Shown: positions 1,429 to 60,732 of the stretch, piece by piece
Position numbering within the stretch: the first letter of the stretch is position 1
How the letters are laid out: each line of letters opens with the position of its first letter
NCBI RefSeq assembly: GCF_041248615.1
Contig: NZ_CP158426.1
Source of the DNA: Escherichia coli
Lineage (GTDB): Bacteria; Pseudomonadota; Gammaproteobacteria; Enterobacterales; Enterobacteriaceae
Reading direction: 5' to 3' (one strand)
DNA: 64,000 nucleotides
Translations under genes and position numbers: made by a program
The notes under the pieces: generated by a model
The model's database searches: none
What the model saw: only the letters and a program-made list of their open reading frames with translations
What the model was told of the DNA's origin: nothing

Positions 1429-2661
1429 ATGGCAAAGGTATCGCTGGAGAAAGACAAGATTAAGTTTCTGCTGGTAGAAGGCGTGCACCAAAAGGCGCTG
1501 GAAAGCCTTCGTGCAGCTGGTTACACCAACATCGAATTTCACAAAGGCGCGCTGGATGATGAACAATTAAAAGAATCCATCCGCGATGCCCACTTCATCG
1601 GCCTGCGATCCCGTACCCATCTGACTGAAGACGTGATCAACGCCGCAGAAAAACTGGTCGCTATTGGCTGTTTCTGTATCGGAACAAACCAGGTTGATCT
1701 GGATGCGGCGGCAAAGCGCGGGATCCCGGTATTTAACGCACCGTTCTCAAATACGCGCTCTGTTGCGGAGCTGGTGATTGGCGAACTGCTGCTGCTATTG
1801 CGCGGCGTGCCGGAAGCCAATGCTAAAGCGCACCGTGGCGTGTGGAACAAACTGGCGGCGGGTTCTTTTGAAGCGCGCGGCAAAAAGCTGGGTATCATCG
1901 GCTACGGTCATATTGGTACGCAATTGGGCATTCTGGCTGAATCGCTGGGAATGTATGTTTACTTTTATGATATTGAAAATAAACTGCCGCTGGGCAACGC
2001 CACTCAGGTACAGCATCTTTCTGACCTGCTGAATATGAGCGATGTGGTGAGTCTGCATGTACCAGAGAATCCGTCCACCAAAAATATGATGGGCGCGAAA
2101 GAAATTTCACTAATGAAGCCCGGCTCGCTGCTGATTAATGCTTCGCGCGGTACTGTGGTGGATATTCCGGCGCTGTGTGATGCGCTGGCGAGCAAACATC
2201 TGGCGGGGGCGGCAATCGACGTATTCCCGACGGAACCGGCGACCAATAGCGATCCATTTACCTCTCCGCTGTGTGAATTCGACAACGTCCTTCTGACGCC
2301 ACACATTGGCGGTTCGACTCAGGAAGCGCAGGAGAATATCGGCCTGGAAGTTGCGGGTAAATTGATCAAGTATTCTGACAATGGCTCAACGCTCTCTGCG
2401 GTGAACTTCCCGGAAGTCTCGCTGCCACTGCACGGTGGGCGTCGTCTGATGCACATCCACGAAAACCGTCCGGGCGTGCTAACTGCGCTGAACAAAATCT
2501 TCGCCGAGCAGGGCGTCAACATCGCCGCGCAATATCTGCAAACTTCCGCCCAGATGGGTTATGTGGTTATTGATATTGAAGCCGACGAAGACGTTGCCGA
2601 AAAAGCGCTGCAGGCAATGAAAGCTATTCCGGGTACCATTCGCGCCCGTCTGCTGTACTAA
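1429..2661 (+). CDS. serA: D-3-phosphoglycerate dehydrogenase
   Basis: 410-aa ORF MAKVSLEKDKIKFLLVEGVHQ..., full length. Confidence 0.97.
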   Translation: MAKVSLEKDKIKFLLVEGVHQKALESLRAAGYTNIEFHKGALDDEQLKESIRDAHFIGLRSRTHLTEDVINAAEKLVAIGCFCIGTNQVDLDAAAKRGIPVFNAPFSNTRSVAELVIGELLLLLRGVPEANAKAHRGVWNKLAAGSFEARGKKLGIIGYGHIGTQLGILAESLGMYVYFYDIENKLPLGNATQVQHLSDLLNMSDVVSLHVPENPSTKNMMGAKEISLMKPGSLLINASRGTVVDIPALCDALASKHLAGAAIDVFPTEPATNSDPFTSPLCEFDNVLLTPHIGGSTQEAQENIGLEVAGKLIKYSDNGSTLSAVNFPEVSLPLHGGRRLMHIHENRPGVLTALNKIFAEQGVNIAAQYLQTSAQMGYVVIDIEADEDVAEKALQAMKAIPGTIRARLLY

Positions 2662-2681
2662 TTCCCCTTCTCTGAAAATCA

Positions 2682-2712
2682 ACGGGCAGGTCACTGACTT
2701 GCCCGTTTTTTT
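2682..2712 (+). terminator. rho-independent terminator after serA
   Basis: GC hairpin acgggcaggtcactgacttgcccgt followed by a T7 run. Confidence 0.8.
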
Positions 2713-2835
2713 ATCCCTTCTCCACACCGTTGCCGCGTTGCGCATTCTACTTTGCGAGTCTGCTCCAGAAAATAAATCAAAGTCAGATCAATGCGTTGTG
2801 TTTATTTAATGGGGATTTACGATGGCAGGGCAGCA

Positions 2836-2980
2836 TGGGGCTGTAACGGTAAAGCCCTCACCGAAGCGAGGGCTTGAAGGAGAAGGGTTATGATGCGACT
2901 TGTCATCATACTGATTGTACTGTTACTCATAAGTTTCAGCGCTTATTAACAGTCAGTCTCAGGGGAGGAGCAATCCTCCC
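2836..2980 (-). ncRNA. sibC: SibC antisense sRNA (antitoxin to ibsC); boundaries approximate
   Basis: Sib RNAs are encoded opposite ibs ORFs (established); stem-loops flank the ibsC ORF (gccctcaccgaagcgagggc, gggaggagcaatcctccc); ends not determinable from sequence alone. Confidence 0.45.
2890..2949 (+). CDS. ibsC: type I toxin IbsC, 19-aa hydrophobic peptide (MMRLVIILIVLLLISFSAY)
   Basis: short ORF with SD aaggagaaggg upstream; sequence recognised as Ibs family; lies in the serA–ygfA spacer as in K-12. Confidence 0.75.
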   Translation: MMRLVIILIVLLLISFSAY

Positions 2981-3049
2981 TTACCCTTACTCACTAAATT
3001 AGGTCAAAGAATCAACGATGTCAATCAGGGCGATGCAGGTGTGTCGCCC

Positions 3050-3598
3050 TTACCACTCCCAGACTTTCGACGGTGTAACCACCGCAGGCAGTGGGATATC
3101 CCACTCTTCAACGGGGAGTTTTTCCACCAACTGACAATCATGCGCATAACCCACCGGTTGCATTTTATAGTGCTGCCAGTTTTGTAAGGTCCGATCATAA
3201 AAACCTCCGCCCATTCCCAGGCGCTGACCGTACTCATCAAAGGCGACCAGGGGGGTGATCAGGACGTCTAATCGGGAAAGGGGGAGCACGTCACGCACAT
3301 CCAATTTTGGCTCATGGATCTTCAACCTGTTCATCACCAGTTCGCTTTGCGGATGGTAATTCAGGAACAGCAAATTACCGGCACTAAAGGGATGCAAAAC
3401 TGGAAGATATACGCGCTTACCGGCGCGCCAGAGTTGTTCTATGAGTGGCTGGGTGTCGAGTTCGCCATCAAAAGAGAGGAATACAGCGACCGTATGTGCC
3501 ATCACCACCGGGGGATAAGTCATCATCCGGGTAGCGGCTTGTTGACCCATTTCCTGCTGTTGTTCCGGCGTTAACGCACGACGACGTTGCCGAATCAT
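3050..3598 (-). CDS. ygfA: 5-formyltetrahydrofolate cyclo-ligase
   Basis: ORF track 3050..3796; start refined to MIRQRRRALTPEQ (182 aa) because the upstream part of the ORF overlaps 6S RNA. Confidence 0.9.
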   Translation of the reverse strand: MIRQRRRALTPEQQQEMGQQAATRMMTYPPVVMAHTVAVFLSFDGELDTQPLIEQLWRAGKRVYLPVLHPFSAGNLLFLNYHPQSELVMNRLKIHEPKLDVRDVLPLSRLDVLITPLVAFDEYGQRLGMGGGFYDRTLQNWQHYKMQPVGYAHDCQLVEKLPVEEWDIPLPAVVTPSKVWEW

Positions 3599-3670
3599 TT
3601 TGCGGATTTCTTGTCGGGATAATGTCAGTGGGAGTTCTGGTAGTTGCGTCATGGCTGGTGCCAGATAAGA

Positions 3671-3856
3671 AGGGAATCTCCGAGATGCCGCCGCAGGCTG
3701 TAACCCTTGAACCCTTGGTTCAAGGTGAATGTGTCGTCGCAGTTTTAAGGCTTCTCGGACGGACCGAGCATGCTCACCAACCGCGGAGCGCCACATTCTT
3801 GTGGTATGAAATATCGGCTCAGGGGACTGGCCCGCTTGCGAACATCTCAGAGAAAT
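3671..3856 (-). ncRNA. ssrS: 6S RNA
   Basis: reverse complement reads AUUUCUCUGAGAUGUUCGCAAGCGGGCCAGUCCCCUGAGCC...GGAGAUUCCCU, matching 6S RNA from memory; immediately upstream of and co-oriented with ygfA. Confidence 0.92.
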
Positions 3857-3897: not shown

Positions 3898-4293
<396 letters not shown>

Positions 4294-60658: not shown

Positions 60659-60732
60659 GCGGGCGTAGTTCAATGGTAGAACGAGAGCTTCCCAAGCTCT
60701 ATACGAGGGTTCGATTCCCTTCGCCCGCTCCA
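60659..60732 (+). tRNA. glyU: tRNA-Gly (anticodon CCC)
   Basis: GCGGGCGTAGTTCAATGGTAGAACGAGAGCTTCCCAAGCTCTATACGAGGGTTCGATTCCCTTCGCCCGCTCCA; cloverleaf with anticodon loop CUUCCCAAG and encoded CCA. Confidence 0.95.

What the first reader, a model, noticed from the sequence alone, without database searches (positions are those of the whole stretch)
2836..2980. Type I toxin-antitoxin ibsC/SibC in the serA–ygfA spacer
A 19-codon ORF encoding the hydrophobic peptide MMRLVIILIVLLLISFSAY with a strong SD is present. The ORF track misses it because of its 60-aa cutoff. The antisense SibC RNA is expected on the opposite strand; its boundaries here are approximate.
Basis: partly seen in the sequence, partly recalled or inferred. 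Interest (0 to 1): 0.35.

Follow-up and report, generated by a model that had tools for sequence, protein, structure and literature searches.

The report
Known E. coli ibsC/SibC toxin-antitoxin locus
This is the well-studied E. coli ibsC/SibC module, a 19-residue membrane-toxic peptide gene silenced by a fully overlapping antisense RNA. It is base-for-base identical to the K-12 copy, so it is real but ordinary.

Summary
The observation and the interpretation are both correct; only the boundaries needed fixing.

- **Toxin gene:** a 19-codon ORF at 2890-2949 (+) encodes MMRLVIILIVLLLISFSAY. An AAGGAG Shine-Dalgarno lies 7 nt upstream. The peptide passes Pfam Ibs_toxin (45 bits, cut-off 27).
- **Antitoxin RNA:** the opposite strand matches Rfam SIB_RNA RF00113 (133.8 bits, cut-off 56, E 3e-28).
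- **Identity to K-12:** window 2780-3036 is identical to E. coli K-12 MG1655. Transferring the MG1655 annotation gives SibC at 2848-2988 (-), 141 nt, and ibsC at 2890-2949 (+).
- **Published K-12 mapping (Han 2010):** the ibsC mRNA start falls at 2830. The two SibC target-recognition domains fall at 2921-2943 (TRD1, inside the ORF) and 2874-2890 (TRD2, over the SD and start codon).
- **Context:** the locus lies between serA and fau (ygfA), next to 6S RNA, as in 5,425 of 5,426 complete E. coli genomes.
- **Rfam caveat:** the Rfam hit (2874-3024) includes the SibC promoter and lacks most of the terminator hairpin, so it is not the RNA's true extent.

Nothing differs from the characterised K-12 system. 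Already known, low interest.

The parts
2796..2823 (+). Putative ibsC promoter: -35 TTGTGT (2796-2801), 16-nt spacer, -10 TACGAT (2818-2823)
   Evidence: Read from the sequence. The -10 sits 6 nt upstream of the start site that Han 2010 mapped by primer extension. The A, A and T at positions 2, 5 and 6 of the -10 (2819, 2822, 2823) are invariant across all ibs upstream regions aligned. The hexamer assignment is inferred; the consensus scan did not call it.
2830..2988 (+). ibsC mRNA (159 nt as used by Han 2010). The 5' end at G2830 lies 18 nt beyond the SibC 3' end. The 3' end is predicted, not mapped.
   Evidence: PMC2943612 reports a 159-nt mRNA with an 18-nt 5' overhang in the duplex. The numbering checks out: the paper's G50, G51 and G53 fall on g2879, g2880 and g2882 of the SD. 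The predicted fold is far more stable than shuffles (-62.7 kcal/mol, z = -4.8) and leaves the SD unpaired.
2877..2882 (+). Shine-Dalgarno AAGGAG, 7 nt upstream of the ATG
   Evidence: Sequence. Unpaired in the mRNA fold. Complementary to SibC C107-C110, which are protected on binding.
2890..2949 (+). ibsC coding sequence: 19 codons plus TAA, peptide MMRLVIILIVLLLISFSAY
   Evidence: Translation. Pfam PF13956 Ibs_toxin, 45 bits against a cut-off of 27, covering profile positions 1-19 of 19. Identical to K-12 IbsC. RefSeq annotates identical DNA as 'type I toxin-antitoxin system toxin IbsC'.
2848..2988 (-). SibC antitoxin RNA, 141 nt, spanning the whole ibsC ORF and its translation initiation region
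   Evidence: MG1655 sibC b4446 (3056851-3056991) transferred through an indel-free, identical alignment. Rfam SIB_RNA 133.8 bits. Fold -55.3 kcal/mol, z = -5.5. Across paralogues 93.4% of cells pair and 10 pairs carry compensatory changes, against at most 54% pairing in slid controls.
2996..3024 (-). SibC promoter: -35 TTGACA (3024-3019), 17-nt spacer, -10 TAATTT (3001-2996). The annotated start A2988 lies 7 nt downstream.
   Evidence: Sequence. TTGAC and the T, A and final T of the -10 are conserved upstream of all five K-12 sib genes. This stretch is included in the Rfam model, positions 1-36. The scan tool did not call it because the -10 matches only 3 of 6. A sigma-S ChIP-seq peak was reported at the K-12 sibC promoter (PMC4447067).
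2921..2943 (-). TRD1 (SibC +46 to +68, P5 loop); pairs inside the ibsC ORF (codons 11-18)
   Evidence: Positions from PMC2943612 mapped as window = 2989 - n. It lies in the P5 stem-loop of the predicted fold. Paralogues share 15-19 of 23 positions with the window copy here, a divergence no greater than over the whole RNA.
2874..2890 (-). TRD2 (SibC +99 to +115, P1 3' strand plus single-stranded J1/7); pairs with the SD and the first base of the start codon
   Evidence: PMC2943612. Nucleotides 107-113 are unpaired in the fold. Only 9-12 of 17 positions are shared with the other K-12 paralogues.
2852..2875 (-). SibC terminator hairpin P7 (SibC +114 to +137), followed by UUUACC
   Evidence: Fold. 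Four pairs carry compensatory changes among paralogues and 98.6% of cells are paired. The scan did not list it because the U-run is short.
2963..2980 (.). GGGAGGA/TCCTCCC palindrome. It forms P2 of SibC (+9 to +26) and, on the other strand, the 3' stem-loop of the ibsC mRNA.
   Evidence: Folds of both strands. Three pairs carry compensatory changes among paralogues.

Best explanation
This is the chromosomal type I toxin-antitoxin pair ibsC/SibC of Escherichia coli, in its usual place between serA and fau (ygfA).

The plus strand gives a roughly 159-nt mRNA (2830-2988). It encodes the 19-residue hydrophobic peptide IbsC, which depolarises the inner membrane and stops growth when it accumulates. 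The minus strand gives the 141-nt SibC RNA (2848-2988) from a promoter with a perfect TTGACA. SibC is perfectly complementary to the whole ORF and the ribosome-binding site.

SibC first contacts the mRNA through two exposed segments. TRD1 is the P5 loop (2921-2943) and pairs inside the ORF. TRD2 is the J1/7 single strand (2874-2890) and pairs over the SD and AUG. Pairing then spreads, which blocks translation initiation and leads to degradation of the mRNA, so the toxin stays off.

Shown here:
- the sequence features, their exact identity to K-12, and membership in the RNA and peptide families;
- the RNA fold and its covariation among paralogues.

Taken from published work on the identical K-12 sequence:
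- toxicity and membrane depolarisation;
- the TRD mapping and the mRNA 5' end;
- cleavage of the duplex by RNase III in vitro.

Inferred: the promoter hexamers and the ibsC mRNA 3' end.
For: - ORF and SD.
- Pfam Ibs_toxin 45 bits against a cut-off of 27.
- Rfam SIB_RNA 133.8 bits against 56, full model length, and the only Sib copy in the 64 kb.
- Identity to MG1655 over 2780-3036, with sibC and ibsC annotated at the corresponding positions.
- 141/141 identity to K-12 sibC against 88-109/141 to the other paralogues.
- The same serA / ibsC / fau / ssrS / zapA gene order as K-12, and the locus present in 5,425 of 5,426 complete E. coli genomes.
- The SibC fold reproduces the published P1, P2, P5, P6 and P7 layout with J1/7 unpaired, with compensatory changes in 10 pairs across paralogues.
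- Mechanism and TRD positions come from PMC2943612.
- Toxicity, depolarisation and psp induction come from PMC8309996.
Against: Nothing in the sequence argues against it. The limits are these:
- No expression data exist for this particular strain.
- The consensus promoter scan called neither promoter, because both -10 elements are weak matches.
- The SibC terminator has a short U-run and was not called either.
- NCBIfam gave no hit for the padded 20-aa query. The reason was not examined, and RefSeq names the identical protein IbsC.
- The primary paper on toxicity (Fozo 2008) was not in the held library. Those statements come second-hand, through Han 2010 and a 2021 review.
Confidence: 0.97

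Rival explanations
1. The element is only an inert intergenic repeat (the old 'QUAD' repeat). Its hairpins would serve as terminators or insulators for serA and fau, and the 19-codon ORF would be a coincidence of the repeat.
For: The region is rich in hairpins: 2852-2875, 2963-2980, and another at 3028-3049 just after the fau stop. A 19-codon ORF on its own is weak evidence.
Against: - serA has its own canonical terminator at 2681-2707, upstream of the module.
- The peptide is conserved as a peptide across paralogues, with 8 invariant residues and conservative hydrophobic substitutions elsewhere, and passes Pfam's curated cut-off.
- The SD and ATG context is invariant across paralogues.
- Published work on the identical sequence shows toxicity and specific repression.
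Confidence: 0.01
2. The locus is present but inactive in this strain: a decayed or silenced copy in which toxin or antitoxin is no longer made.
For: There are no expression data for this strain. Chromosomal type I loci do decay in some lineages. In one listed O157:H7 genome (H25) the match stops at query position 176, just upstream of the ORF start, so only the serA-proximal part is matched there.
Against: Every base from the ibsC -35 to the sibC -35 is identical to K-12, where both transcripts and the toxicity were demonstrated. The only two differences from K-12 in 2660-3060 are at 3037 and 3043, in the loop of the hairpin downstream of fau and outside the module.
Confidence: 0.01
3. SibC's main role is something other than silencing ibsC, for example a trans-acting regulator of other mRNAs under sigma-S control. 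The antitoxin function would then be secondary.
For: - Sigma-S RNA polymerase binds the K-12 sibC promoter region, and SibC levels depend on rpoS in a temperature-dependent way (PMC4447067).
- Two SibC transcripts are seen.
- SibC derivatives can silence unrelated targets when re-engineered (PMC3616725 abstract).
Against: - No natural trans target is documented in the papers read.
- Complementarity to ibsC is perfect and complete.
- TRD1 and TRD2 map exactly onto the ibsC ORF and its initiation region.
- According to Han 2010, cells lacking a Sib RNA other than SibA die if the cognate ibs mRNA is expressed.
Confidence: 0.03

Closest known systems
E. coli K-12 ibsC/sibC (b4665/b4446), Ibs/Sib type I toxin-antitoxin family (Rfam RF00113, Pfam PF13956)
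   Same: Every base from 2780 to 3036 is the same, covering both promoters, both transcripts and the peptide. The flanking genes (serA, fau, ssrS, zapA) are the same too.
   Different: Nothing within the module differs. The strain is not K-12: there are two SNPs at 3037 and 3043, in a hairpin loop between the sibC promoter and the fau stop. The 401-nt query is 100% identical to other E. coli strains such as 504239, ETEC1717 and LF4-1.
Paralogous K-12 pairs ibsA/sibA, ibsB/sibB, ibsD/sibD, ibsE/sibE
   Same: Same architecture, same fold and the same SD/ATG context. The peptides are 68-84% identical.
   Different: 62-77% nucleotide identity over SibC. TRD2 is the least conserved segment (9-12 of 17 positions shared). 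Han 2010 showed that TRD1 and TRD2 restrict each Sib to its cognate mRNA. The paralogues sit at other chromosomal sites (yegL-mdtA and yqiK-hldE) and occur there as tandem pairs.
Tandem ibsC plus second Ibs-family copy at the same locus in O157:H7 EDL933 and about a third of complete E. coli genomes
   Same: Same serA-fau site. Each copy is 134/141 identical to the window SibC.
   Different: The window has a single copy. EDL933 has two, 393 bp apart. They differ from each other at 5 positions, 3 of them in the TRD1 loop, which changes the peptide C-terminus (SFGAY versus SLPAY).
Other E. coli type I systems with small membrane toxins (hok/Sok, ldr/Rdl, tisB/IstR-1, shoB/OhsC)
   Same: A small hydrophobic membrane toxin repressed by an antisense RNA.
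   Different: In Ibs/Sib the antisense RNA covers the entire functional mRNA, both initiation region and ORF. Han 2010 describes this as unique among cis-encoded systems. There is no sequence relationship to these other families.

Membership tests
Ibs/Sib type I toxin-antitoxin | An 18-19 residue, highly hydrophobic peptide matching the Ibs toxin profile | tested here: met
   Pfam PF13956, 45 bits against a cut-off of 27, profile positions 1-19 of 19 (the query was padded with the upstream codon to reach the tool's 20-aa minimum). Identical to K-12 IbsC. 79% hydrophobic residues.
Ibs/Sib type I toxin-antitoxin | An antisense RNA of about 140 nt matching the SIB_RNA covariance model above its gathering score | tested here: met
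   RF00113, 133.8 bits against 56, E 3e-28, model positions 1-147 of 147, minus strand 2874-3024.
Ibs/Sib type I toxin-antitoxin | The sRNA gene lies on the opposite strand and spans the whole toxin ORF and its translation initiation region | tested here: met
   SibC 2848-2988 (-) contains the SD at 2877-2882 and the ORF at 2890-2949 (+).
Ibs/Sib type I toxin-antitoxin | Conserved Sib secondary structure: closing stem P1, hairpins P2, P5 and P6, single-stranded J1/7, terminator P7 | tested here: met
   The minimum-free-energy fold reproduces this layout, z = -5.5. 93.4% of cells pair and 10 pairs carry compensatory changes across 7 distinct paralogue sequences, against at most 54% pairing in slid controls. 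Caveat: the structure was derived from one of the aligned sequences.
Ibs/Sib type I toxin-antitoxin | Convergent promoters driving the toxin mRNA and the antitoxin RNA | tested here: inconclusive
   Sequence motifs sit at the right distance from the published or annotated start sites and are conserved among paralogues. The generic consensus scan called neither, and activity cannot be tested here. Activity was shown for the identical K-12 sequence, by primer extension for ibsC and by ChIP-seq and northern blot for sibC.
sibC/ibsC specifically (the C paralogue) | Cognate TRD1 and TRD2 sequences and a serA-fau location | tested here: met
   TRD1 23/23 and TRD2 17/17 identical to K-12 sibC. The other paralogues share 15-19 of 23 and 9-12 of 17. 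Flanked by serA and fau.
Ibs/Sib type I toxin-antitoxin | Overexpressed peptide is toxic and depolarises the membrane; toxicity is repressed by the cognate Sib RNA | not testable with these tools
   Reported for the identical K-12 sequence, as summarised in PMC2943612 and PMC8309996. The primary paper (Fozo 2008, PMC2597788) is not held.
Ibs/Sib type I toxin-antitoxin | Sib binding leads to degradation of the ibs mRNA; the duplex is an RNase III substrate | not testable with these tools
   In vitro RNase III cleavage of the SibC-ibsC duplex, and a cited report of mRNA degradation.

The most novel reading that the evidence does not exclude
The position of ibsC/SibC may be functional rather than accidental. 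It sits against the ssrS (6S RNA)-fau operon, and sigma-S polymerase is reported to bind the K-12 sibC promoter. SibC levels, and hence IbsC release, could therefore be tied to entry into stationary phase. Separately, the single-versus-tandem copy polymorphism at this site may reflect ongoing duplication followed by divergence in TRD1, which would keep the pairs from cross-reacting. Nothing in the window itself supports more than the textbook module.
Probability: 0.07. Interest if true: 0.3.

Novelty: already known. Interest (0 to 1): 0.05.

Why it matters
It matters little beyond correct annotation. The locus is a model system for how a fully overlapping antisense RNA recognises and discriminates its target, and for minimal membrane-active peptides. 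This window holds an exact copy of the characterised K-12 allele.

The practical value is in the annotation:
- Short-ORF cut-offs miss the toxin gene.
- The PGAP-annotated RefSeq records examined name ibsC but not the SibC RNA.
- The Rfam hit coordinates (2874-3024) should not be taken as the RNA's ends. The model includes 36 nt of promoter and lacks most of the terminator hairpin and the 3' tail.

Tried and rejected
- **NCBIfam scan** of the peptide, padded to 20 aa: no family found. The reason was not examined. Pfam and the RefSeq naming settle the identity.
- **Generic promoter and terminator scan** of 2600-3100: no promoter found, and only the serA terminator. Both module promoters have -10 elements below the tool's threshold of 4 of 6, and the SibC terminator has too short a U-run. 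This is not evidence of absence, given the mapped start sites in K-12.
- **Primary literature:** I tried to read Fozo 2008 (PMC2597788) and the 2008 MMBR review (PMC2593563). Neither is held.
- **A second Sib copy in the window,** as in O157:H7: the whole-window Rfam scan finds only one. Only 25 nt separate the sibC -35 from the fau stop.
- **Other mechanical ORFs over the locus:** 2817-2930 (-) 37 aa and 2874-3002 (+) 42 aa. I found no support for either and did not pursue them.
- **TRD1 as a divergence hotspot:** it is no more divergent between K-12 paralogues than the RNA as a whole. Only TRD2 stands out, so I did not claim that both domains are divergence hotspots from my own data.

Full report
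**Observation.** Window 2890-2949 (+) translates to MMRLVIILIVLLLISFSAY followed by TAA. AAGGAG lies at 2877-2882, 7 nt upstream of the ATG. At 19 aa the ORF also falls below the 20-aa floor of the mechanical ORF list.

A short ORF alone would mean little, but this one stands out. Only six short (10-50 aa) ATG ORFs with an SD-like motif exist on either strand of the 64-kb window. Two of them are this ORF read from its two adjacent ATGs, and it is the most hydrophobic at 79%.

**Family evidence.** The minus strand matches Rfam SIB_RNA (RF00113) over the full model: 133.8 bits against a gathering score of 56, E 3e-28, coordinates 2874-3024. It is the only Sib copy in the window.

The peptide matches Pfam Ibs_toxin (PF13956) over all 19 profile positions, 45 bits against a cut-off of 27. 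I padded the query with the preceding codon to reach the tool's 20-residue minimum. NCBIfam returned nothing for the same query.

**Identity with the K-12 locus.** A 401-nt query around the locus finds 5,425 of 5,426 complete E. coli genomes. It is 100% identical to several strains and 99.5% identical to K-12. Aligned with MG1655, every base from 2780 to 3036 is the same, with no indels. The two differences lie at 3037 and 3043.

MG1655 annotates sibC (b4446, 3056851-3056991) and ibsC (b4665, 3056890-3056949) between fau and serA. Transferred to the window, these become SibC 2848-2988 (-) and ibsC 2890-2949 (+).

The neighbours agree: serA at 1429-2661 (+), its terminator at 2681-2707, fau on the minus strand from 3050, 6S RNA at 3673-3856 (-), and zapA at 3898-4227 (-).

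Against the five K-12 paralogues the window RNA is 141/141 identical to sibC and 88-109/141 identical to sibA, B, D and E. The peptide is identical to IbsC.

**Anatomy.**
- **Rfam coordinates are not the RNA's ends.** On the minus strand the match begins with TTGACA (3024-3019). A 17-nt spacer follows, then TAATTT (3001-2996). The annotated 5' end, A2988, lies 7 nt further on. The first 36 model positions are therefore promoter.
- **SibC promoter conservation.** TTGAC and the T, A and final T of the -10 are conserved upstream of all five K-12 sib genes.
- **SibC 3' end.** The RNA ends in a hairpin (2852-2875) followed by UUUACC. Most of this lies outside the Rfam match.
- **SibC fold.** The 141-nt RNA folds at -55.3 kcal/mol (z = -5.5). 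The fold has a closing stem P1 (nt 1-6 with 101-106), hairpins P2, P5 and P6, an unpaired segment at 107-113, and the terminator P7. This is the layout described by Han et al. 2010.
- **Covariation.** Projected onto the paralogue alignment, 93.4% of cells form standard pairs and 10 pairs carry compensatory changes. Slid controls reach at most 54% and 4 pairs. The structure was derived from one of the aligned sequences, which favours it somewhat.
- **ibsC mRNA.** Han et al. mapped the 5' end by primer extension and used a 159-nt transcript with an 18-nt 5' overhang beyond the SibC 3' end. That places the start at G2830 and the assumed 3' end at 2988. The mapping is self-consistent: their G50, G51 and G53 fall on the three G's of AAGGAG, and SibC C107, C109 and C110 fall opposite them.
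- **ibsC promoter.** A plausible promoter is TTGTGT (2796-2801), 16 nt, TACGAT (2818-2823). Its A, A and T at 2819, 2822 and 2823 are invariant across the ibs upstream regions aligned. The generic scan called neither this promoter nor the sibC one, so the hexamers are inferred.
- **mRNA fold.** The predicted fold (-62.7 kcal/mol, z = -4.8) leaves the SD unpaired.

**Mechanism.** The following comes from published work on the identical K-12 sequence.
- SibC recognises ibsC mRNA through two independent domains. TRD1 (+46 to +68, window 2921-2943) is the P5 loop and pairs inside the ORF. TRD2 (+99 to +115, window 2874-2890) covers the SD and start codon and needs the P1 stem.
- Pairing then spreads into flanking sequence. 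The fully annealed duplex is cut by RNase III in vitro, and repression is accompanied by mRNA degradation.
- Overexpressed IbsC depolarises the membrane within minutes, reduces viability and induces the psp operon. The peptide forms an alpha-helix.
- Sigma-S polymerase binds the K-12 sibC promoter region, and SibC levels depend on rpoS in a temperature-dependent way.

None of these functional steps can be tested with sequence tools. They are taken over on the strength of base-for-base identity. In my own paralogue comparison, TRD2 is clearly less conserved than the rest of the RNA (9-12 of 17 positions). TRD1 is not (15-19 of 23 against 62-77% overall).

**Rivals.**
- **An inert repeat or terminator cluster.** This is contradicted by peptide-level conservation, the invariant SD/ATG context, and serA having its own terminator upstream.
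- **A decayed copy.** This is excluded by identity to the functional K-12 allele.
- **A primary trans-acting role for SibC.** This cannot be excluded, but no target is documented in the papers read.

**Verdict.** Both the observation and the interpretation are supported, and only the boundaries needed correcting. The locus is the already-characterised ibsC/SibC type I toxin-antitoxin pair, with no variant feature in this window. Novelty: already known. Interest: low.

Noticed in passing
window 3673-3856 (-): 6S RNA (ssrS): Rfam RF00013, 139.8 bits against a cut-off of 46.4. It lies upstream of fau on the same strand, as in K-12. The mechanical 248-aa ORF at 3050-3796 (-) runs into it, so that ORF over-extends fau. 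MG1655 annotates fau as 549 nt and PGAP as 603 nt.
   Followed up: partly
window 3028-3049 (either strand): Hairpin GGGCGA-N10-TCGCCC, immediately after the fau stop codon (3050-3052) and 3 nt before the sibC -35. It may terminate the ssrS-fau operon or shield the sibC promoter from read-through. The only two differences from K-12 (3037, 3043) lie in its loop. In EDL933 the hairpin follows each of the two tandem Sib copies, so it belongs to the duplicated 393-bp unit.
   Followed up: partly
L002 (EDL933) 1731-1790 and 2124-2183; E. coli genome collection: Copy-number polymorphism at this site. The 5,425 genomes yield 7,311 places, so about 1,886 genomes (about 35%) have two places. In EDL933 the second is an annotated Ibs-family toxin 393 bp downstream. 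The two EDL933 SibC-length copies differ at 5 positions, 3 of them in the TRD1 loop, giving peptide tails SFGAY and SLPAY. In one listed O157:H7 genome (H25) the match stops just upstream of the ORF start.
   Followed up: partly
L001 and L002 (RefSeq PGAP annotation) versus L003 (MG1655): The PGAP-annotated records name the ibsC CDS and the 6S RNA but not the SibC antitoxin RNA. Only the curated MG1655 record lists sibC. The antitoxin half of this system therefore appears to be absent from PGAP-annotated records; only two were examined.
   Followed up: no
window 60659-60732 (+): tRNA-Gly (anticodon CCC), the only tRNA in the window. From its position it is presumably glyU; I did not check this.
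   Followed up: no
window 2681-2707 (+): Canonical intrinsic terminator of serA: a 12-bp stem followed by TTTTTAT, 20 nt after the serA stop and well upstream of the ibsC promoter.
   Followed up: no
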